From assembly GCA_000092065.1 (NCBI GenBank), contig CP000584.1: DNA of 64,000 nt, one strand, 5' to 3'. Positions within the stretch are counted from its first letter, which is position 1; each line of letters opens with the position of its first letter. The stretch comes from Ostreococcus lucimarinus. Lineage: Eukaryota. Below the pieces are notes generated by a model. It searched no databases. It had not been told where the DNA came from and saw nothing but the letters and a program-made list of their open reading frames with translations. The translations under genes and the position numbers were made by a program. This document shows positions 161-54,676 of the stretch, one piece after another.

Positions 161-3100
161 AAGCTATCAGAGGTAACAGCGTCGATTGGACGGTGAAGAA
201 GAACGTCGATAGTACCTCATCGGGGGGAGTTTTCTTGGTCGGATGGAATTCGAAGGGTGCTGCAGTGAGCGCGCGGGCGATCCATTCGTCCTCAAATGTC
301 ACTCGAGGGATATCTGCAACTTTGGAACGTGGGCCTTATTCAATGGGTCACACTTGCGTAGGTCTGACGAGCTCTGCGGATCGCGAGACGGTTGATAGTT
401 CTAACATCGATTTCGCCATGTGTTGCGAATGGGGTTATCTTGGTGTTTTTGAAAAGGGATCGCGCAAATGGCGTGCTAGTGGAAACTTGCAGGATAGTTG
501 TTCACAAACGGACACGCTACAAATCGTCGTGAACGATGGGGATGGCGCGATCGAGTACTTCAAGAATCGGCGTCGCGTGTATACCAGTCAACGGACACCT
601 CAGTATCCGCTTCACGCAGACGCTGAAGTCTATTTCGGAAGACTGGGTGAAGTTGTTTGGATTGAACGAATTCCATCACCGCCTCCTTCTCCTCCTCCAC
701 CGCCTTCACCGCCGCCGCCACCATCACCGCCCCCGCCGCCCCCGCCTTCACCGCCGCCATTGCATCAGTTTACATCCGCGGATGTAGATCCACGCATCAA
801 CACGGCCGCGGCTATTCCGCACATCACACGCGAGGAGTTCGAGGATTTCATCGAAAATATAACAGGCTTCCCTAATTTGGGACACGCCATCGTGATGGAT
901 GAAATCTGGCAGTATATCGACGACGACGGGGACGGTGTTTTGAGTGAGATTGAGTTCCAGCACGCGTCTTACAAAATGCACACTCACGAGCTGTACGTTG
1001 ATCCCATCATCGTCTACCCCAGCCGCTCGATAAAACATCGCTACGGCTTCAAGGTTTCCAAATCAGTCAGGAGTGATTCTAGTGCCTGCGTGGGTGACGC
1101 CGTATCTTACGACGGTCCCTCTGCGTCGCTTGGTTCGTGCGAATTGACTTCGGAGAAGGAGCCTGTAGAGATTACATTATGGGGAAATGGTTTTGCTGGC
1201 ACACCGTCGACGACCACTATTTACAGCTTGGGAGCTTCCAAGAATGGAGACACTACGTACATCGCGAGCGCGCGCGTTTCTGTCGGCACCTGGTTCACGT
1301 ACAACGTGTGTGCGGTGATAAAGTTTCGCGTGATAAAGAAAGATGGTCAGTGCTCGATCGTCGTTGACCAAGTTCATAAGATGTGGCCAAGCCTGGTGTC
1401 TTCGAAATGTGGCATCACGCCACCCATCTATGACAGATGGAGCCGCTACATGGTTGCATCCGTTGCGACGTCGGCGACGAACGGCTTTGCTGGCATGAAA
1501 TCTTCTATGTTCAAGAGCTGCGCTGCGAGTTGTGAGAATGCGATTCTACTTCGACACAATAAAACTGTGCCGTACAATACATCTGAGTGGCGAAATTATT
1601 ACGAGTCTCTAGTAAAACGAGACATGGAGCCGACTACTCACGTCGACTGCTCTCACCGAGAAGACATGGTTGTGCTCGGCAGAGAAGAGGACACGCTCGC
1701 CATGCCCATGGTGCTCTCATCCATGGCTAGGAAGCAATGGCTTCTTGACCTCGATTCGGCGCGGCGAAAGCAGAGTACCAGTGAGAATGTCACCAAATTG
1801 CTCGGCACCATGCACTCCAATTTTGCCATCAGTTCAGATTTATGGCTGCCGGATATTGTACACGTGTTTGACAAAATTCCAAAGCCTGAAAATGCTTCTT
1901 CGGGTCCATCCAAGGAGGATGAAATTCACGTGGTGGATAACGATCTCGGGAATTCTTTCTCAAACTTTGCGCGTATAGAAGTAAACCGACTCCAACTTGA
2001 ACACAAGCGCATTGGAGAAAAAACATTTACAGATGACACCGCCGCTGTGGTCAAAGGCGCTATTCTTTTCCCACAGCATCTCACGGGCGGCAGTCCAAAC
2101 TGTGGATTGTTTGAAGCCATGATTCGTGTTTACGACGTGGAAGAAGACGGCGAGCCAGATGTATACTTGACTGAAGAAGATGGCTCGTTCGAGATGGCTT
2201 TAACGCGTGGAAAGACCTTCAGAATTGAAGCCTTTTATGAAGGACACACCATTTGCTACGCCGGAAGTCAGCCTCAAGACGCGACGTCACCCAATGGCTA
2301 TGATTTCGAAGGAGGACAGCAGGCGTGTGTCAAGACGACCCACACGCTCGCTCGTGTCGGCGATGGCAACTTTTTATACTTTACAGATATTACGCGCGGA
2401 AATATTGACCTTGGTTTGTATGCGGGAGAATGCGAAGAAAGGTACACGGGCGAAGATGTCAAGTTTAGGGTAACGCCCGTCAACGGCTGTCATAAACCCG
2501 TCATCGTTTCCGAAACCGACATCAACGAGCGATGGCATACGATTGAGGATATCCTACCGGAAGGCCAGCAGGTTGGCGACAACGCCCGCGTGTGGAAATT
2601 CGCGGCGATGGATTACTCCATCACGCTAGCGAGTGGTTCCGACATCAGTAGAGTTACCGAAAAAGCGTGTCCAGACGAGGCATGCCCAGATTACTGGGAT
2701 GGATGTCAAGTCGAGCCAGACGACATGCGTCAATTTTTCCGCAATCGAAACTCACTCGAAAGACTTGCGCTGATGAGAGATGAATTTGCGTGGAATTCCA
2801 TCAGGTACAAGTATCACGGATATATCTGCGCACAAATAATGGACATTCCTCGAATCACTGATAACGAGCTCAGACTCGAGACTTGCGTAGGCAACTTAAC
2901 TTCCGGAATGTTGACAGAGAAGCATTTACTGGGTTCGTCTGATCACGACACAATCAGCGTCGCCGCTGACAAATCGTTGAGGGTGAAGGTGTTTGAACTT
3001 CACGATCTCACACCGAATGCCGCAGATGCCCCATTTAAATGCACAAAGTTTCCAAATACGCAAAGTCGCACGGGAAACACGAAATTTTCCGTTCGACAGA

Positions 3101-6100
3101 CTGTCACAAATGAAGAAGATAACGTGTGTCATCCAAATCGCGGGGGTGGGCCCCTGTGCGATTTTGAAGTTAATATATCAACGGCTGACGTCGGCAAACT
3201 CATCTTTCCGACGGAAGAAGATACGGATCAGGAAACTACCCAAATGGTCATTGCCGCGGGGTATCCAAACCTTGCAAACCCGTATCGACGAGAAGTCACG
3301 ATCACTGTGACACGCGACGATACACCCTTGGACGGTGGTCTTGGGCGATCGCTGCAAGCAACGATGACGCGAGTACTTATCCCATTGGGCTCCAAGCCAC
3401 GAGGAGGATTTGACACGGGAGATGACACCTTGTGGGCGACAGTGCCTATTGATGGATTGGTATACACAGTGGTGCACGATCCGCCAGGTGGTAATTCTGT
3501 AGCCGAGCTGCAATCTGGATCTGAGATTACGATTCAGTGGGAAATCGCTTCAGCTCGCTCTGTGAAAGTTGGCAGATCGATCGAGCTCAACCTCGGTTTC
3601 GCAGGTAAAACTACGTTTGATCTAGGCTTTAACGCCGGTTACACCGCAGAGGCTGCTACAAAATCGAGCGTTCTCACGTTGGAGACGGAGAAAGATTTCG
3701 GACACAAAGAATCTGGTCCACACTTCACCGCGAAGGCGACGTCCGAAGAAGTGTGGGAGACGACGGTTACGATGGATCGACACATCCGGAGCAGCGACGA
3801 TGAAGGCACACCTGGACGTCCGGGCGACGTCATTTTAGGAGGTGGTATCGAACTCGTGTACAAGGTATCAGATACGCTCGACGTAGGTACTGTTGACGAC
3901 TGCTTAACTACGGGTGTTGGTATAACCTGGTTACCGCGTCGACCAACCTCTTACGTGTTCAACGTCTTTTCCATCGAGTCTCAAGTGCTGCCGAATCTCT
4001 ACTTTCTGTATACTGTCGCCAAGTCTGGCGAAAATACGGCGAAGACACCGTCAGATAGAATCGTCAAGGATGGATCGGGTATGCGATATGAGTGCGCGTC
4101 ATCGCCGTGCTCTAACTCAGAAATGAATCAACATTGGGCAAGCTACATACTGAGACGAATCCATACGTGGAAGCGAACGTTGCTTTGGTCCTCGCCCGAA
4201 GTTTACTGGATGCCAAAGGGTGCGAGTTATGAAAAGAACTACAAAGCATACGATCGCATCAATGAACCGTACATCGATTCACGTTCCCTCTTTGAACGGC
4301 GCATGTCATCCGCGTTGGCACAGCGTGATTCCAAGCGTGATCCATCGATTCTGAGGGTTGCATTCGAGCTGAGTAAAATGTGGTACGAGCAATCCCTCCT
4401 CAGTGTGGGTGACAGAGGCATGCTTCGTTCGAAACCTCACATCCCTGCTTTATTTCTCACTGCAGGACTGGAAATTCCGAGACTAGCACCATTTCTCGAA
4501 AATTCACGAGCAGCGTCTTTTGCTTCGATCGCGTACCCACGTTCGTCAAAGGGTGCGTGGTCATTCGATGAAGTGGTAAATGACCAAACAAACATCGGAA
4601 TGTACTCTTTTGGGATGAACGAAGTCGCCGCTCGTGACCTCGATGCGCAGGTCAAGAAGTGCGACGGTGTACTGTGCGAGACCAGTGGAGAATTCGACGC
4701 CGCACCACATGACGTGTTGTACGGAGGATCACTGAACGCCATGGGTGAGACCGGCGACCTTCGCGCCACGGACCCTTCGCGCTTAATGGCGTCTCTTACT
4801 GGGACTCCTGGTCCAACCGGAATGCTTCAAAAGGATGCCGTCGCGAGCGGCGGAGAAGAGGAGACGATATACTTAACTTTTGGTGGTGGTGGACATGCGT
4901 TGGAATTCTCTTTCAGCGCAAAGGAGTCCATCAACCGCGATGCATTCGCGTACTCGCTTGACTTTGATGCAAGCGCCGAAAACACAAACAACATGAAGTT
5001 CTCGGGCTCACCAATACCCACCATCGAGTTTAATCGAGCGACAGACATCGCCAGAACGCTGTCCACGGATCGTATCTTTGCGTGGAACAAGTACGGAACG
5101 ATGACGACGGTGTATTCTCTCGCGGATCCAGATTATGGCGATAAATTTGTTCTGAAAGTCGGAAGCGATGCGCGATTCGGCACACCGCTCTTCATGACAA
5201 TGGGCGGTAGATCCATGTGTCCCGGCGAATTGACGACGATGTGGCGCGAATCGGGAAATATCATTGAAAGACCTCGTTCGTTATCCTTTGGTACGCTCCC
5301 GCTGAACCCAGGAGAGCGCGCTGTTCACGAAATAACTATTCAGAATGAATCTCCATACAGAGAAGCCCGACCGCTGTATTTACGTATCGTTGATGGACAC
5401 TCAGAGTCGTTACGATCGCTGGTGCGCGCAGCGCTGAACATCATCAAGGATGATGAATCAGCTTCGGCACAACATGTAGCCACAGTTGTCACGAACACTG
5501 CTGCAAACTCAGTAGCTTCGGCATCCCTGTCCATGGCCACTGTCATAGAGAAAGTTGAAGAGGCAGCTGGCAGCGGCGACGCGACTGCCCTGAGTGTTAT
5601 GCAAGTCGTCGTCGCCGAAGTCGAGAGCGTCAGTAAATCGGCTATGACGCCGTTACAGGATGTAGAGATTACCGTGAACGGCAAGAAGGTGGTACCTGTC
5701 GCTGAGTGGCTTCCTTTGAAGCATGTCATCGGCGATGCTCTTGAATCACAACGGACCGTTCACAAGACTGTGTTCAACTTGGGTTTCAAGCCAACGGAAA
5801 CCTCGCATCCTATCATTGAACACATTCAAGTTGAAATTGGATCTCTGTGCGAAATGCAAATCTCATATGATGGAGCTGGTCTGTATCGCGATCCAATCGC
5901 CGTCAAGGCTCAACTTGAAAAGATGCGATGGGAATCCAAGTGTCCGAGCGTGACGTTTTCCAAGTCCACCGTCATTGACAGTGAAATCACGCGCGCAAAC
6001 GCGACTGCGCCGCCGCTTCGTTTGGTGGTGGTCAATCCCGATTCTGGAAACTTGTGGGATCCTAGCAGCGCCAGTAGACTCGAAAAGGTTGTCGTACAGT

Positions 6101-7371
6101 ACAGACCGCTTTCGGGTGGCGAATGGATTACTGCGAAGGAGGATCATGTGAAGTACAAAGACGACTCGTACAAGAAAAATCTCATCTGCGAACATTCTCG
6201 AACGAGCGGATGCACGTGGGACTGGGATTTGAACAACAAATACGACAAGTTACTCAGCGGATACAAGGACGGTGCGTACGAGGTTCGCGTTAAAAACTTT
6301 TGCTCGGGCGGTGACGCTTTCGCCGCGACCGAGGTGCACGAGTACGTCGGCGATAAGACGCTATTACTCTTCACGGATACGAAAAACCCGCTCGTCGAGC
6401 AGCACGTGTCGTCACCCGCGGCGCGCACCGTCACCATCGTGTACGCGGAGGAAATCGATTGCGCAGATCCACCGACCTTCGAAGTGGCGCAAACTCACGA
6501 CGAATCCTGCGTCGCCGTCGCGGGCGATGGCACAGTCAGCGCGGCTATCATTCGTGAGTCTTACGAGCAAACGTGCCTCAACACCGGCGTTCAAGGAAAG
6601 TGGATGATGCAATATCCCAACAATGAGGATGCTCCGAATCCTGGATTGTACAGAGTCACCGTCAGAGACATACGTGACAAAGCCGGTAACCCTTTCGTCG
6701 GCGATTTGACGATAAACTACGTCGTGGGTGACGTCGTCGATGACTGTGACATTTTGAAAGCATCCAAAGATGACCTCACCCCGCTCATCGGTTTGGGAAA
6801 TTTCGCCGATGTTCAAGGCAATACCATCTGGGGGGTGTACTCTAAAAATATCGACTGTCGCTCGCAGCGAGTCACCATCACGAAGAGTTTTGATCAATCG
6901 TGCCGATCCACGAGCACAGAAATTGGCACAACCAACTTCACGCTTGCGTGCGTGAACGTCGGCGGAACGGGACAATGGATCATGAAATATCCTGAAGATC
7001 TGGAATCTGGAGTTTACACCGTGCGAGTTCAAGGCGTGAAAGATCGCACTGGTCACGAAGCGTCTTCTTTCATTCGCAAGTTTACAACGCTTCATAACTC
7101 GGATGGAACGTTGAACGAATGCGACGACGCGTCCGCCTCTTTTGCCATCGGACTTGGGCGGATGCGTCGTCGACGTCTCGCTCCGAGCGCGTCCGCGACA
7201 AAGACGTCCACAAACTTGATTCTGTCCGATCTCGCCATCGTCGTGTTCGCTATCTGCGCGCTCGTGATGATCATCAAGAAAAGAATCGCGCTGCCCGCGG
7301 ATGAGAGTGAGCTGCGCGAACGCGAAGCCTTCGACAAGGTGGACATTCCGCGCTATGGTTCATCTTTGTGA
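1..7371 (+). CDS. Giant secreted or type-I membrane protein, 5'-partial (reading frame 1 is open from nt 1; at least 2456 codons). Extensin-like (S)P3-7 tracts, one canonical EF-hand loop, two tandem ~95-aa Cys-containing Ig-like repeats near the C-terminus, a single C-terminal TM helix and a short basic tail.
   Basis: ORF track 193..7371 (2392 aa); the same frame has no stop back to nt 1 and encodes PPSPPPSPPPP repeats from nt 1. Second Pro tract PSPPPSPPPPPSPPPPPSPPPPPPPSPPP at ~664-765. EF-hand loop DDDGDGVLSEIEF. C-terminal hydrophobic segment LILSDLAIVVFAICALVMII followed by KKRIALP. Repeated G-Y-V-(V/R)-V-D-AGN-like motifs. No antisense competitor of comparable quality. Confidence 0.8.
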   Translation, partial: PPSPPPSPPPPSPPPSPPPPPPPPSPPPPPPSPPPPPPSPPPSPPSPPPPPPAKAIRGNSVDWTVKKNVDSTSSGGVFLVGWNSKGAAVSARAIHSSSNVTRGISATLERGPYSMGHTCVGLTSSADRETVDSSNIDFAMCCEWGYLGVFEKGSRKWRASGNLQDSCSQTDTLQIVVNDGDGAIEYFKNRRRVYTSQRTPQYPLHADAEVYFGRLGEVVWIERIPSPPPSPPPPPSPPPPPSPPPPPPPSPPPLHQFTSADVDPRINTAAAIPHITREEFEDFIENITGFPNLGHAIVMDEIWQYIDDDGDGVLSEIEFQHASYKMHTHELYVDPIIVYPSRSIKHRYGFKVSKSVRSDSSACVGDAVSYDGPSASLGSCELTSEKEPVEITLWGNGFAGTPSTTTIYSLGASKNGDTTYIASARVSVGTWFTYNVCAVIKFRVIKKDGQCSIVVDQVHKMWPSLVSSKCGITPPIYDRWSRYMVASVATSATNGFAGMKSSMFKSCAASCENAILLRHNKTVPYNTSEWRNYYESLVKRDMEPTTHVDCSHREDMVVLGREEDTLAMPMVLSSMARKQWLLDLDSARRKQSTSENVTKLLGTMHSNFAISSDLWLPDIVHVFDKIPKPENASSGPSKEDEIHVVDNDLGNSFSNFARIEVNRLQLEHKRIGEKTFTDDTAAVVKGAILFPQHLTGGSPNCGLFEAMIRVYDVEEDGEPDVYLTEEDGSFEMALTRGKTFRIEAFYEGHTICYAGSQPQDATSPNGYDFEGGQQACVKTTHTLARVGDGNFLYFTDITRGNIDLGLYAGECEERYTGEDVKFRVTPVNGCHKPVIVSETDINERWHTIEDILPEGQQVGDNARVWKFAAMDYSITLASGSDISRVTEKACPDEACPDYWDGCQVEPDDMRQFFRNRNSLERLALMRDEFAWNSIRYKYHGYICAQIMDIPRITDNELRLETCVGNLTSGMLTEKHLLGSSDHDTISVAADKSLRVKVFELHDLTPNAADAPFKCTKFPNTQSRTGNTKFSVRQTVTNEEDNVCHPNRGGGPLCDFEVNISTADVGKLIFPTEEDTDQETTQMVIAAGYPNLANPYRREVTITVTRDDTPLDGGLGRSLQATMTRVLIPLGSKPRGGFDTGDDTLWATVPIDGLVYTVVHDPPGGNSVAELQSGSEITIQWEIASARSVKVGRSIELNLGFAGKTTFDLGFNAGYTAEAATKSSVLTLETEKDFGHKESGPHFTAKATSEEVWETTVTMDRHIRSSDDEGTPGRPGDVILGGGIELVYKVSDTLDVGTVDDCLTTGVGITWLPRRPTSYVFNVFSIESQVLPNLYFLYTVAKSGENTAKTPSDRIVKDGSGMRYECASSPCSNSEMNQHWASYILRRIHTWKRTLLWSSPEVYWMPKGASYEKNYKAYDRINEPYIDSRSLFERRMSSALAQRDSKRDPSILRVAFELSKMWYEQSLLSVGDRGMLRSKPHIPALFLTAGLEIPRLAPFLENSRAASFASIAYPRSSKGAWSFDEVVNDQTNIGMYSFGMNEVAARDLDAQVKKCDGVLCETSGEFDAAPHDVLYGGSLNAMGETGDLRATDPSRLMASLTGTPGPTGMLQKDAVASGGEEETIYLTFGGGGHALEFSFSAKESINRDAFAYSLDFDASAENTNNMKFSGSPIPTIEFNRATDIARTLSTDRIFAWNKYGTMTTVYSLADPDYGDKFVLKVGSDARFGTPLFMTMGGRSMCPGELTTMWRESGNIIERPRSLSFGTLPLNPGERAVHEITIQNESPYREARPLYLRIVDGHSESLRSLVRAALNIIKDDESASAQHVATVVTNTAANSVASASLSMATVIEKVEEAAGSGDATALSVMQVVVAEVESVSKSAMTPLQDVEITVNGKKVVPVAEWLPLKHVIGDALESQRTVHKTVFNLGFKPTETSHPIIEHIQVEIGSLCEMQISYDGAGLYRDPIAVKAQLEKMRWESKCPSVTFSKSTVIDSEITRANATAPPLRLVVVNPDSGNLWDPSSASRLEKVVVQYRPLSGGEWITAKEDHVKYKDDSYKKNLICEHSRTSGCTWDWDLNNKYDKLLSGYKDGAYEVRVKNFCSGGDAFAATEVHEYVGDKTLLLFTDTKNPLVEQHVSSPAARTVTIVYAEEIDCADPPTFEVAQTHDESCVAVAGDGTVSAAIIRESYEQTCLNTGVQGKWMMQYPNNEDAPNPGLYRVTVRDIRDKAGNPFVGDLTINYVVGDVVDDCDILKASKDDLTPLIGLGNFADVQGNTIWGVYSKNIDCRSQRVTITKSFDQSCRSTSTEIGTTNFTLACVNVGGTGQWIMKYPEDLESGVYTVRVQGVKDRTGHEASSFIRKFTTLHNSDGTLNECDDASASFAIGLGRMRRRRLAPSASATKTSTNLILSDLAIVVFAICALVMIIKKRIALPADESELREREAFDKVDIPRYGSSL

Positions 7372-27769: not shown

Positions 27770-28663
27770 TTACGCGCCGCGACCGATTTGCGCGGCTTGA
27801 CCTTGCATCAAGCCCATGCGAATATCGCGGGACGCCTCCGCGACGGCGCCCGGACCGGAAGGCACAAAAATGGTCGAGTTGCCGCCTTGCGTGCCGACTT
27901 CCTTCATGGTGTCAAAGTACTGCGTCATCATCATCATCTCCAAAACGTCTTTGCTTGAGATACCATCCACAGATTCTTGGAAGTCAACCACGGATTCGCG
28001 CAAACCGGCGATGATGGCTTGACGTTGACGCGCCATCCCCGTACCCGCGAGATACTTGGACTCCGCATCGGCTTCGGCAGCCTTGACGACCATGATCTTA
28101 TCCGCCTCGGCGCGATCTTGCGCCGCGACTCTCGCGCGCTGCGCGGCGTTGATCTCGTTCATCGCCTGTTTGACTCGCGCGTCCGGCGCGATGTCCGTCA
28201 CGAGCGTGTTCATGATTTGATACCCGAATCCCTCCATCGACTTGCTCAGCAACTCCTTCACGCTCTGCGCGATCTCTTCCTTGCTCTCGAACACGTCGTC
28301 CAACTTGATCCTCGGCACCGTCGATCGCACGACGTCGAACACGTACGACCGAATCTGCGCCTTGGAATCCGTCAGTTTGTAAAACGCGTCGTACAATCGC
28401 GTCTCGTCCATCGACAGCACCTGATACTGCGTGCTCACGACGATCGTCACGAACACGTTATCCTTCGTCTTCGTCTCCACGCTCACGTCCAGCGACTGCA
28501 CGCGCGTCGACACCGTCCCCGCGACCGCCTGCCCGATGAACGGGTTCACGAAGTGGCACCCCTCGCGCGCGAAGAACGCAAACTTCCCGCACTGCTGGAT
28601 CACCTGCACCGTGCCCGTGGGCACGCACGTGAAGCAGCAGCACCCCGTGGGGCCGGCCGTCAT
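27770..28663 (-). CDS. SPFH/band-7 protein of the hypersensitive-induced-response (HIR) type.
   Basis: Near-collinear with plant HIR proteins (RVQSLDVSVETKTKDNVFV, DAFYKL, YVFDVVRSTVP, VKQAMNEINAAQRARVAA, ESKYLAGTGMARQRQAII, TQYFDTMKEVG, FVPSGPGAV). The N-terminus MTAGPTGCCC is compatible with acylation. Confidence 0.9.
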   Translation of the reverse strand: MTAGPTGCCCFTCVPTGTVQVIQQCGKFAFFAREGCHFVNPFIGQAVAGTVSTRVQSLDVSVETKTKDNVFVTIVVSTQYQVLSMDETRLYDAFYKLTDSKAQIRSYVFDVVRSTVPRIKLDDVFESKEEIAQSVKELLSKSMEGFGYQIMNTLVTDIAPDARVKQAMNEINAAQRARVAAQDRAEADKIMVVKAAEADAESKYLAGTGMARQRQAIIAGLRESVVDFQESVDGISSKDVLEMMMMTQYFDTMKEVGTQGGNSTIFVPSGPGAVAEASRDIRMGLMQGQAAQIGRGA

Positions 28664-28754
28664 GTCGGTCGTCGTCGTCGTCGCGCGGCGATGTGCGTCG
28701 TCGTCGCGATGCGATGGCGCGCGAGATCGCCACGTGGCTTTTTTAAAAAATAAA

Positions 28755-28815
28755 ACTGTTTGCGCATATAAAAAGTATAAAAAGCCTTTTTATACTTTTT
28801 ATATGCGCAAACAGT
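28755..28815. promoter_or_regulatory. 61-bp perfect AT-rich palindrome (30-nt arm + C + 30-nt arm) carrying back-to-back TATAAAAAG boxes; candidate symmetric bidirectional core promoter.
   Basis: The sequence ACTGTTTGCGCATATAAAAAGTATAAAAAG C CTTTTTATACTTTTTATATGCGCAAACAGT is read directly. It lies between the divergent ATGs of the HIR gene (28663, minus) and the 28868 (+) gene, and is preceded by the palindromic TTTTTTAAAAAA at 28739-28750. Confidence 0.6.
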
Positions 28816-28867
28816 CCGACGCTCTTTTCGACACCGCGCCGCTGGGCACGCCGGACAGCGACACACG

Positions 28868-29938
28868 ATGGCGACGGCGCGCGCGACCGCGGGCGCGCCG
28901 GCGCGCGCGACGACGGCGCGCTGGATCGCGACGCGATCGCGCGCGACGCGCGCGACGCGCGGGACCCGCGGCCGCGCGCGCGCGACGCCGAACGACGGCG
29001 AAGCGCACGCGGCGTACCTGCGAGACGTCGCGGCGACGCGCGCGCCGGCGGAGCTCGAGGCGCTCGCGCGCGTGCTCGACGCGCTGGGGTGCGAAACGAT
29101 CGCGCCGAACGCGCGGCGAGGGATCCACCCGCTGGTGATGCCGCTGGCGAGGACGCGCGAGGGAGGGGTGATCGGACTCATGGTGACCGAGGACGACGGC
29201 GAGGCGACGCCGGTGGTCGAGGTGCGGGACGGCGCGCACGCGACGATGCTGGCGAAGAGCGCGAGGGATTACGTGCACAGAGCGATCGTCGAGGAGGAAG
29301 CGATGAGCGATGAGCAGACGACGACGGTGGCGGCGGCGGCGGGCGCGGTGGGGGTGAGCCTGCACGCGCACGGGGCGTTTAAGACGTCGGGGAAGGAGTT
29401 CGACGTGTACGTGACGACGCAAATCGGGAAGTTTCCGTCGTCCATGGAGGGGCTGGTTCGGAGACACTTGAAACGAAACGACGAACAGTCGGCGTTGATC
29501 ACGTGTGATCTGTACAAGGCGACGTTCGGCGATTGGGGGGCGCCGCACGTGTTCATCTCTGATTTATATTCCAAATTAGGACGCGACGAGGAGGCGCGAG
29601 ACGCCGCGCGACAGGCGTTGCAAACGCCGTGGTCCACCATCGGCGGCAGAGACGCCATCACGCGAATGATTGACGTCGCCGGGTGGTCTGGTAAGACCGT
29701 GGCAGAGATCAAAGAAGTCCTAGAGAGCCGACGCGGTCCATCCGCGGCGGCGTTCGACGGCCCGAAGAGCGAAAAGCAACTCGCGCGCGAAGAGGGCGAG
29801 CTCTTGCTCGACCAAATCGCCGCGGGTGAGATCGAATCCTCGACCGTCAATCAGCGTTTGGCGGAGTGTTACATGAACGCCGGCAAGCCCGCGCTCGCGA
29901 AGTTCATCATGTGCGGCGCGGGGATGCCGGCGCTGTGA
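28868..29938 (+). CDS. Hypothetical protein with an R/A/T-rich transit-peptide-like N-terminus.
   Basis: 356-aa ORF with mixed composition and a green-lineage organellar presequence look (MATARATAGAPARATTARWIATRSRATRATRG). No confident family. Confidence 0.5.
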   Translation: MATARATAGAPARATTARWIATRSRATRATRGTRGRARATPNDGEAHAAYLRDVAATRAPAELEALARVLDALGCETIAPNARRGIHPLVMPLARTREGGVIGLMVTEDDGEATPVVEVRDGAHATMLAKSARDYVHRAIVEEEAMSDEQTTTVAAAAGAVGVSLHAHGAFKTSGKEFDVYVTTQIGKFPSSMEGLVRRHLKRNDEQSALITCDLYKATFGDWGAPHVFISDLYSKLGRDEEARDAARQALQTPWSTIGGRDAITRMIDVAGWSGKTVAEIKEVLESRRGPSAAAFDGPKSEKQLAREEGELLLDQIAAGEIESSTVNQRLAECYMNAGKPALAKFIMCGAGMPAL

Positions 29939-54206: not shown

Positions 54207-54613
54207 AGGAGTTCGACGACGATGAGTACGCGGAGACGAAGGCGGCGACGCTGACGCAGCTGGACGCGTTCAAGACGTCGCTGCAGCGCATGACGACCGG
54301 GGACGTGACGCTCGAGGACGAGCTCGCGACGGTGAAGGCGGCGACGAAGGCGGCGATCGCGAGCGCGTTCAGGACGCCGGAGGTTTTGAAGATGTTCGCG
54401 CTGCGACAGCCGGACGAACTGCGAGAGCGGATGCAGCGAGCGGCGAGGGACGTGATGCTTGGGAAGATGAGCGCGGAGCGGGGTGAAGTGATACGGGTGG
54501 AGGCGCTGACGGCGCTGAAGAAACTGGGAAGCGAGTTGGAGGCGGAGGAATTGGAGTTTTTACGCGCGCACATGACGCGCGGGTTGACGGATTTCGTGGA
54601 CGCGGTGGAGTGA
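54002..54613 (+). CDS. LZIC: LZIC (leucine-zipper and ICAT-homologous domain) protein, two exons: join(54002..54094,54209..54613).
   Basis: Exon 1 (MSADTASLVANARQQIARLLTQLADLEDARE) plus exon 2 (EFDDDEYAETKAATLTQLDAFKTSLQRMTTGDVTLEDELATVKAATKAAIASAFRTPEVLKMFALRQPDELRERMQRAARDVMLGKM...) align collinearly with LZIC from memory ([63 protein letters not shown]...[27 protein letters not shown]...DRDLMVGKL). Confidence 0.75.
54095..54208 (+). other. 114-nt phase-0 intron of LZIC, containing a (GAC)11 microsatellite and an in-frame TGA.
   Basis: Donor GTGCGCGC immediately after the exon-1 Glu codon. A CTGACTGAC branch motif sits upstream of the (GAC)n run. Acceptor GACGCAG|GAG. Coordinates were derived from the ORF-track anchors; the exon-1 frame's TGA lies at 54137, one nt after the ATG for M139 of ORF 53722. 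Confidence 0.7.
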
Positions 54614-54676
54614 GCGGACGTAGCGCTGCGGGCGGTTGTAGTATTATATATATGTGTGGTAGCTTGCCTGGCGTGG

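What the first reader, a model, noticed from the sequence alone, without database searches (positions are those of the whole stretch)
28739..28815. 61-bp perfect AT-rich palindrome with back-to-back TATA boxes centred in a divergent promoter
In a ~70% GC context, 28755-28815 is a perfect inverted repeat: 30-nt arm ACTGTTTGCGCATATAAAAAGTATAAAAAG, a single central C, then the exact reverse complement. It is immediately preceded by TTTTTTAAAAAA, itself a palindrome. Each arm carries two TATAAAAAG-type boxes, so one TATA pair points at each flanking gene. The HIR/band-7 ATG (minus strand) is ~92 bp to the left and the 28868 gene's ATG is ~53 bp to the right, the spacing expected for TATA-to-TSS plus a short 5' UTR in both directions. 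This looks like a mirror-symmetric bidirectional core promoter. Alternative readings are a foldback/MITE remnant or a cruciform-forming element.
Basis: seen in the sequence. Interest (0 to 1): 0.7.

Follow-up and report, generated by a model that had tools for sequence, protein, structure and literature searches.

The report
Young inverted duplication of a TATA promoter
The perfect 61-bp AT-rich palindrome is real. It is a recent copy-in-reverse of an old TATA-box promoter element, found in only some strains of the marine alga Ostreococcus lucimarinus, so its mirror symmetry is a mutational by-product and not a conserved promoter design.

Summary
Window 28755-28815 is a perfect 30+1+30 palindrome. 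The next-best perfect hairpin in the 64 kb has 11-nt arms.

The window is Ostreococcus lucimarinus CCE9901. The palindrome lies in the 204-bp divergent promoter between a Band-7/HIR gene (minus strand) and a PAB-like gene (plus strand).

Comparison with other sequences shows how it arose:
- Only the right, PAB-side arm is ancestral. Its outer 21 nt (TTTTTATATG-NNN-AAACAGT), next to a G-box, are conserved as a single copy in two other Ostreococcus species.
- Within O. lucimarinus itself (99.2-99.7% identical flanks), wild haplotypes carry one of four forms: the single arm only; the single arm plus an 11-bp tandem duplication; a 41-bp palindrome; or the full 61-bp palindrome.
- The reference allele differs from the single-arm allele by a 48-bp insertion (28739-28786). 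Of these, 32 nt are the exact reverse complement of the adjacent ancestral sequence. The other 16 nt (T6A6TAAA) have no identifiable template.

It is single-copy, has no target-site duplication and matches no RNA family, so it is not a MITE or an RNA gene.

Best reading: a derived, polymorphic inverted duplication, probably from replication template switching, that doubles a real TATA/G-box core promoter. Transcription start sites were not tested. This is a clean new example of a known mutational process.

The parts
28786..28815 (-). Right (PAB-proximal) arm, the ancestral promoter element. On the HIR-sense (minus) strand it reads ACTGTTTGCGCATATAAAAAGTATAAAAAG, with two TATAAAAAG boxes.
   Evidence: It is present in every O. 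lucimarinus allele, including the single-arm alleles. Its outer 21 nt, TTTTTATATG-NNN-AAACAGT, are invariant in two other Ostreococcus species (L035, L036), in the same position and orientation.
28755..28784 (+). Left (HIR-proximal) arm, the derived inverted copy of the right arm.
   Evidence: It is absent from L019-L021 and L023, which are the same species (99.2-99.5% identity), and from all other species examined. It carries the O. lucimarinus-specific GCGC, so the copy was made after that substitution.
28739..28786 (.). The 48-bp segment inserted relative to the single-arm allele. It consists of a 16-nt filler (TTTTTTAAAAAATAAA) followed by a 32-nt exact reverse complement of the adjacent ancestral GGC + 29 nt. 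The placement is ambiguous by the 6-nt CTTTTT microhomology.
   Evidence: Removing 28739-28786 reproduces the L023 junction GGC|TTTTTATAC. The 32 nt match the reverse complement of the neighbouring sequence. The filler has no template of more than 8 nt within +-1.5 kb.
28729..28738 (.). G-box palindrome GCCACGTGGC, the element of this promoter conserved across the genus.
   Evidence: CCACGTGG(CGA) is found at the same promoter in L011, L015, L016, L018 and L036, and in a variant form in L035 and L013. It occurs only once as a 10-mer in the window. It is mutated (CAGGTG, CGGGTG) in the single-arm alleles.
28739..28750 (.). T6A6 tract, part of the untemplated filler.
   Evidence: Seen in the sequence. 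It is present in alleles A1 and A2 only.
27770..28663 (-). Band-7/SPFH (HIR-like) gene, 297 aa, the left-hand gene of the divergent pair.
   Evidence: Pfam Band_7, E = 1.9e-32. Identical to XP_001417563.1 of O. lucimarinus CCE9901.
28868..29938 (+). PAB-like gene, 356 aa, the right-hand gene of the divergent pair.
   Evidence: Precomputed Pfam hits PAB_middle and PAB_C on the identical product. The HIR-PAB arrangement is syntenic in all Ostreococcus loci fetched.
28651..28737 (.). Hypervariable patch (HIR codons 3-4, 5'UTR and G-box), directly adjoining the insertion.
   Evidence: 15 of the 39 differences between the window and L019 fall in these 87 bp, against roughly 0.4% divergence elsewhere. 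The segment 28684-28692 has three alleles.

Best explanation
The palindrome is a derived, still-segregating inverted duplication inside the shared core promoter of the divergent HIR/Band-7 and PAB-like genes of Ostreococcus lucimarinus.

The ancestral promoter had a G-box followed directly by one TATA-bearing element (CTTTTTATACTTTTTATATGCGCAAACAGT). In one haplotype lineage, 48 bp were inserted between the G-box and this element. Of these, 32 nt are an exact reverse-complement copy of the adjacent sequence. The most likely cause is a short-range replication template switch or fold-back synthesis. The other 16 nt are an untemplated T6A6TAAA filler. The result is a perfect 61-bp palindrome.

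Functionally, the conserved arm is most likely the TBP-binding TATA element of this divergent promoter. The duplication doubles the TATA boxes from two to four. It widens the AT-rich tract, which is presumably nucleosome-poor, to 92 bp. It also moves the G-box 48 bp away from the original TATA. This probably shifts the start site or expression level of HIR in particular.

What is shown: the anatomy, the direction of change (derived), the polymorphism and the single-copy status. What is inferred: the template-switch mechanism, TBP binding and any effect on expression. The mirror symmetry itself is a by-product of the mutation, not a selected design.
For: - Perfect 30+1+30 palindrome, unique in the window.
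- The organism is O. lucimarinus CCE9901.
- Single-arm haplotypes L019-L021 and L023 are 99.2-99.5% identical to the window over several kb, so they belong to the same species.
- Allele series: A1, 61 bp, in at least 11 assemblies; A2, a 41-bp palindrome, in 4 independent assemblies; A3, single arm; A4, single arm plus an 11-bp tandem duplication.
- Outgroup species L035 and L036 conserve the right-arm element once, in the same orientation, with no inverted partner.
- Both arms carry the lucimarinus-specific GCGC where the outgroups have GTAT, so the copy postdates the species split.
- 32 of the 48 inserted nt are an exact reverse complement of the adjacent sequence.
- TATA consensus is rare in the window. 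The G-box is conserved across species.
- Template switching is documented as a source of inverted-repeat expansion in promoters: PMC13100816 and the PMC7954356 abstract.
Against: - The 16-nt filler (25 nt in A2) is not explained by a single template switch.
- The A1/A2 difference needs a second event whose direction is unresolved.
- A 48-bp deletion between the CTTTTT direct repeats (28738-43 and 28786-91) would convert A1 to A3 in one step. Within the species alone, the direction of change is therefore ambiguous and rests on the outgroups.
- No transcription start site, expression or TBP-binding data were available.
- In each arm the TATA reads towards the distal gene, so which arm serves which gene is unknown.
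- Allele sampling was biased by exact-protein look-ups.
Confidence: 0.85

Rival explanations
1. A selected mirror-symmetric bidirectional core promoter. The symmetry itself is functional, giving each gene its own TATA pair.
For: The distances to the two ATGs are plausible. The outgroup element already has a small back-to-back TATA arrangement, TTTTTATA-TG-TATAAAC. O. lucimarinus lost the PAB-facing TATA (GTAT to GCGC), so the duplication could compensate. A1 is the commonest allele among the contigs retrieved and sits on several SNP backgrounds.
Against: Single-arm alleles persist in wild populations. The symmetry is not conserved in any other species. Allele A2 has only 20-nt arms. The boxes face inward, not outward. 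Allele frequencies are biased by the look-up method.
Confidence: 0.1
2. A MITE or foldback transposon remnant inserted in the promoter.
For: It is a perfect inverted repeat, AT-rich and short. Weak sub-threshold Rfam hits go to MITE-derived miRNA hairpin families.
Against: There is one copy in the window. A metagenome-wide scan with the 21-nt arm recovers only this locus (3 contigs) and one unrelated bacterial coding sequence. There is no hit in viral contigs. The flanks (TAAA / CCGA) show no target-site duplication. One arm is orthologous ancestral sequence conserved across species. The presence/absence polymorphism involves half the element, not the whole.
Confidence: 0.02
3. The palindrome is ancestral, and the single-arm alleles arose by deletion between the CTTTTT direct repeats.
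For: A 48-bp deletion with 6-nt microhomology reproduces the A3 junction exactly. Palindromes are deletion-prone (established knowledge). The single-arm alleles have derived G-box mutations.
Against: Two other species have a single element with no partner. Both arms share a lucimarinus-specific substitution. A palindrome staying perfect over the time since the species split is unlikely, given that the adjoining 87 bp are hypervariable.
Confidence: 0.04
4. A structural DNA or RNA element: a cruciform-forming fragile site or replication origin, or a transcribed hairpin (small-RNA precursor or 5'UTR translational block).
For: The hairpin is strong, -31.4 kcal/mol with z = -7.7. The centre is AT-rich. 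The neighbourhood is hypervariable, which could reflect palindrome-induced instability.
Against: No Rfam family reaches its gathering score. O. lucimarinus lacks Dicer and Argonaute (PMC4014436). The structure is not conserved in other alleles or species. An ATG inside the right arm (28803) argues that the PAB start site lies downstream of it, so the hairpin is not in that mRNA.
Confidence: 0.04

Closest known systems
Short-range template-switch mutations and inverted-repeat expansion at promoters (four-point model of Loytynoja & Goldman 2017, from memory; Walker et al. 2021, PMC7954356; yeast promoter IR expansion, PMC13100816)
   Same: The new sequence is an exact reverse complement of the immediately adjacent DNA. 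It creates a perfect inverted repeat in a promoter. It is lineage-specific and can be polarised with outgroups. A cluster of nearby changes accompanies it.
   Different: The inverted copy here is long (32 nt) and creates a palindrome from nothing, with essentially no spacer, rather than homogenising a pre-existing quasi-palindrome. The 16-25 nt of AT-rich filler are not templated. Several intermediate or alternative alleles still segregate in wild populations.
TATA-box / G-box plant-type Pol II core promoter in a head-to-head gene pair
   Same: The TATAWAWR consensus lies 65-140 nt from both ATGs. CACGTG lies beside it. The intergenic region is compact (204 bp), as is typical of Ostreococcus (average below 200 bp, PMC3236181). 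The element is conserved across species.
   Different: There are four TATA boxes in mirror symmetry, facing inward. No start-site data exist. The G-box is mutated in the single-arm alleles.
MITEs / foldback elements
   Same: It is a short, AT-rich, perfect inverted repeat with hairpin potential.
   Different: It is single-copy, has no target-site duplication, and one arm is ancestral host sequence.

Membership tests
MITE / foldback transposable element | Multiple dispersed copies in the genome | tested here: not met
   There is one locus in the window at up to 3 mismatches. A metagenome scan with the 21-nt arm returns only this locus in 3 O. lucimarinus contigs, plus one unrelated bacterial coding sequence. 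Viral contigs give no hit. The full assembly was not available.
MITE / foldback transposable element | Target-site duplication flanking the terminal inverted repeats | tested here: not met
   The flanks are ...AATAAA | palindrome | CCGACG..., or GCGACG in most alleles. No direct repeat is present.
MITE / foldback transposable element | Empty site lacks the whole element | tested here: not met
   The alleles and species without the palindrome retain exactly one arm at the same position.
Template-switch / inverted-duplication mutation | Inserted sequence is the exact reverse complement of nearby sequence | tested here: met
   32 of the 48 inserted nt equal the reverse complement of the adjacent GGC + 29 nt.
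Template-switch / inverted-duplication mutation | Ancestral state without the inverted copy, established by outgroups | tested here: met
   L035 and L036 conserve the element as a single copy with no partner. Both arms carry the lineage-specific GCGC.
Template-switch / inverted-duplication mutation | One switch-and-return event accounts for all the changed bases | tested here: not met
   The 16-nt filler in A1 and the 25-nt filler in A2 have no template of more than 8 nt within +-1.5 kb. At least one additional event or untemplated synthesis is needed.
TATA-box core promoter | TATAWAWR consensus | tested here: met
   There are four TATAAAAA matches at 28767 and 28776 (plus strand) and at 28794 and 28803 (minus strand). 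Only 3 other loci in the 64 kb match.
TATA-box core promoter | Located about 25-35 nt (up to about 120 nt in some lineages) upstream of a mapped transcription start site | not testable with these tools
   No transcript 5'-end data were accessible. The distances to the ATGs (65-140 nt) are compatible.
TATA-box core promoter | Conservation at the orthologous promoter | tested here: met
   TTTTTATATG...AAACAGT is invariant in the alignment of O. lucimarinus alleles with L035 and L036, while the surrounding intergenic DNA is unalignable.
miRNA / structured RNA gene | Match to a curated family, or a conserved structure with covariation | tested here: not met
   The best Rfam hit scores 35 bits against a gathering score of 86. 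The hairpin is absent from other alleles and species. The host lacks Dicer and Argonaute (PMC4014436).

The most novel reading that the evidence does not exclude
The HIR/PAB promoter of O. lucimarinus is a target of diversifying or balancing selection. At least five structural alleles and a 17%-divergent 87-bp patch sit in a background that is about 99.5% identical. The palindrome allele may rewire expression of the Band-7/HIR gene, whose plant relatives act in hypersensitive and antiviral responses, possibly in the arms race with prasinoviruses. On this reading the palindrome would be an adaptive regulatory allele captured in mid-evolution, with the A3 -> A2 -> A1 intermediates still segregating.
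Probability: 0.07. Interest if true: 0.6.

Novelty: new member of a known kind. Interest (0 to 1): 0.35.

Why it matters
This is a clean natural example of how a perfect palindrome appears in a eukaryotic promoter. The ancestral element, the single-arm alleles, a half-way allele and the full palindrome are all recoverable from wild marine populations. It warns against reading perfect symmetry as design, since here perfection marks youth. It also gives an experimentally tractable allele series, in an alga related to the transformable O. tauri, for asking how doubling TATA boxes and moving a G-box changes divergent transcription. It does not reveal a new kind of element.

Tried and rejected
- **Dispersed family.** I searched for the arm in the window at up to 3 mismatches, in viral contigs and in JGI metagenome contigs. 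Only this locus was found. L022 is a chance 21-mer match inside a low-GC bacterial coding sequence.
- **RNA gene.** Rfam at gathering thresholds over the whole window, and a permissive E-value search over 28500-29100, gave only generic sub-threshold hairpin matches.
- **Template for the filler.** I looked for a template for the 16/25-nt filler and for the outer-arm replacement in A2. None was found.
- **Rooting the alleles.** I tried to polarise the within-species alleles from flanking SNPs. Recombination mixes the backgrounds, so rooting rests on the outgroup promoter sequences instead.
- **Distant species.** L011, L015, L016, L018 and L013 keep the synteny and the G-box, but their promoters are too diverged to align with the arm.
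- **Literature.** Searches for mapped Ostreococcus transcription start sites or TATA usage found nothing specific to this locus.
- **Other ideas.** I considered a Pol III type-3 (USE + TATA) promoter driving a small RNA. There is no USE motif and no RNA family hit, so I dropped it. A forkhead- or MYB-like reading of ACTGTTTGC was considered and dropped as unsupported.

Full report
**1. The observation**

The sequence at 28755-28815 is ACTGTTTGCGCATATAAAAAGTATAAAAAG, then C, then the exact reverse complement. TTTTTTAAAAAA lies at 28739-28750. Each arm holds two tandem TATAAAAAG units.

An exhaustive scan of the 64-kb window for perfect hairpins with loops of 0-8 nt finds nothing else with arms longer than 11 nt, and those are GC-rich. 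The arm has no other match at up to 3 mismatches, and none in shuffles. The 92-bp stretch 28726-28817 is the longest island with GC at or below 30% in a window that averages 62% GC. As single-stranded DNA the hairpin folds at -31.4 kcal/mol, z = -7.7.

In each arm the TATAAAAAG reads towards the palindrome centre, that is, towards the distal gene. The boxes are face-to-face, not back-to-back.

**2. Context**

The flanking ORFs are a Band-7/SPFH (HIR-like) protein on the minus strand (27770-28663; Pfam E = 1.9e-32) and a 356-aa PAB-like protein on the plus strand (28868-29938). An H+-pyrophosphatase lies further left. The Band-7 and pyrophosphatase proteins are identical to XP_001417563.1 and XP_001417314.1 of Ostreococcus lucimarinus CCE9901.

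The palindrome therefore sits in a 204-bp head-to-head intergenic region of a compact picoeukaryote genome. Ostreococcus intergenic regions average below 200 bp (PMC3236181). A perfect G-box palindrome, GCCACGTGGC, lies at 28729-28738, directly left of the T6A6 tract.

**3. Same species, other samples**

Exact-protein look-ups returned many marine-metagenome contigs that are 99.2-99.7% identical to the window over several kb. Extracting the promoter from all of them, plus contigs from a metagenome scan with the 21-nt arm, gives an allele series.

| Allele | Form | Where found |
|---|---|---|
| A1 | Full 61-bp palindrome | Window and at least 10 further independent assemblies; L010 has one mismatch in the right arm |
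| A2 | 41-bp palindrome; outer 10 nt of the left arm and part of the filler read TTTTTTAAAAAGAAAAATATATTTT | L003, L024, L032, L034 (four independent assemblies) |
| A3 | Right arm only, abutting a mutated G-box | L023 (GCCGGGTGGC\|TTTTTATAC), L020 (GCCAGGTGC\|CTTTTTATAC) |
| A4 | Right arm only, plus an 11-bp tandem duplication of the TATA unit | L019, L021 |

The palindrome is therefore a structural polymorphism within O. lucimarinus, not a fixed feature.

**4. Direction of change**

Within the species, A1 and A3 differ by 48 bp (28739-28786). This could be an insertion, or a deletion between the CTTTTT direct repeats at 28738-43 and 28786-91. Outgroups decide the question.

Synteny (pyrophosphatase, HIR, PAB) holds in every Ostreococcus locus fetched. 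Two species whose PAB is 75% identical, L035 and L036, have a G-box followed by a single copy of TTTTTATATGTATAAACAGT, in the same orientation as the right arm. In the alignment, TTTTTATATG and AAACAGT are invariant while the rest of the intergenic DNA is unalignable. Neither species has an inverted partner.

O. lucimarinus has GCGC where these species have GTAT, and it has GCGC in both arms. The copy was therefore made after that substitution. More distant species (L011, L015, L016, L018, and O. mediterraneus L013) keep the G-box and a CTTTTAT-like tract but have no palindrome. The right arm is ancestral and the left arm is derived.

**5. Mechanism of origin**

Of the 48 inserted nucleotides, 32 are the exact reverse complement of the immediately adjacent ancestral sequence (GGC + 29 nt). 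The remaining 16 (T6A6TAAA) have no template longer than 8 nt within +-1.5 kb. In A2, 22 of 47 inserted nt are templated.

An exact inverted copy of adjacent sequence is the signature of a short-range replication template switch or fold-back synthesis. That process is documented in great-ape genomes (PMC7954356, abstract). It is also documented as a frequent source of inverted-repeat expansion in yeast promoters, with effects on expression (PMC13100816).

A single switch does not explain the filler. It also does not explain the A1/A2 difference, so at least two events occurred. A2 to A1 by arm extension has a ready template, but the direction is not resolved.

The site is a mutational hot spot. 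Fifteen of the 39 differences between the window and L019 lie in the 87 bp (28651-28737) that adjoin the insertion. These include three alleles of a 5'UTR segment, a 3-bp indel in HIR codons 3-4, and three different G-box mutations.

**6. What it does**

The conserved single element next to a conserved G-box is most plausibly the TATA core of this divergent promoter. In the outgroups it already contains back-to-back boxes, TATAAAAA on the HIR strand and TATAAAC on the PAB strand. TATAWAWR is rare in the window: four loci, and only this one and one other lie upstream of a gene start.

An ATG inside the right arm (28803) is conserved across species. In the window it would start an out-of-frame ORF overlapping the PAB start codon. 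This argues that the PAB start site lies downstream of it, consistent with the arm being upstream promoter DNA.

The duplication doubles the boxes, widens the AT-rich tract and moves the G-box 48 bp away from the original TATA. I infer an effect on the HIR start site or expression level. This is not shown. Because single-arm alleles persist in nature, the second arm is not required.

**7. Rivals**

- **MITE/foldback.** Rejected. It is single-copy, has no target-site duplication, and half of it is ancestral host sequence.
- **RNA gene or miRNA precursor.** Rejected. No Rfam family reaches threshold, the structure is not conserved, and O. lucimarinus lacks Dicer and Argonaute (PMC4014436).
- **Palindrome ancestral with later deletions.** Unlikely given the outgroups and the shared GCGC.
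- **Selected symmetric design.** Cannot be excluded, but it is unsupported by conservation.
- **Cruciform or fragile site.** Structurally possible, untested.

**8. Verdict**

The promoter location and TATA content are right. The 'mirror-symmetric promoter design' reading is not supported, and the MITE alternative is refuted.

The feature is a young, polymorphic inverted duplication of a conserved TATA element. It is a new member of a known kind of mutation. Its interest is moderate-low and comes mainly from the unusually complete allele series in wild populations.

Noticed in passing
window 28651-28737 (and L019-L021, L023): A hypervariable patch within one species. Fifteen of the 39 differences between the window and L019 fall in 87 bp covering HIR codons 3-4 (a 3-bp indel), the 5'UTR (three alleles of 28684-28692) and the G-box (three different mutations). 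The flanks are about 99.5% identical.
   Followed up: partly
window 28600-28640; L011 2543-2760; L015, L016, L018: The Band-7/HIR gene of four other Ostreococcus lineages has a GT..AG intron of about 220 nt between TTCACGTGCG and TGCCCACGGG. The intron is precisely absent in O. lucimarinus, and HIR is called as one uninterrupted ORF in L013, L035 and L036, so it has been lost or gained within the genus.
   Followed up: partly
window ~28856 and 28803-28805: A 4-bp indel (GAGC) that is polymorphic in the population puts the ATG inside the right arm in frame with PAB. Metagenome gene callers then report ORFs of 379, 402 or 416 aa instead of 356 aa. In the window that ATG is out of frame and would start an ORF overlapping the PAB start.
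   Followed up: partly
window 193-7371 (+): A 2392-aa ORF at about 50% GC in a window averaging 62% GC. It has no Pfam domain at E <= 1e-5. It contains an exact copy of the 10-mer GTATAAAAAG (2370-2379, minus strand) inside coding sequence.
   Followed up: partly
L011 2890-2930; L015 2730-2770; L018 355-385: In other Ostreococcus species the G-box CCACGTGGCGA is flanked by an A-tract on the HIR side and a T-tract on the PAB side (GAAAAG..G-box..CTTTTAT). The promoter was therefore already quasi-palindromic around the G-box. The CGA extension lies on the opposite side of the core in O. lucimarinus.
   Followed up: no
L022 6723-6743: An exact 21-nt match to the arm inside a low-GC bacterial coding sequence (apparently aminotransferase-like, not checked). 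This is a chance hit, at roughly the rate expected for a database of this size.
   Followed up: yes
window 54645-54655: The only other canonical TATA (TATATATA) in the window that lies upstream of a gene start. It is about 75 nt from the ATG at 54573 on the minus strand.
   Followed up: no
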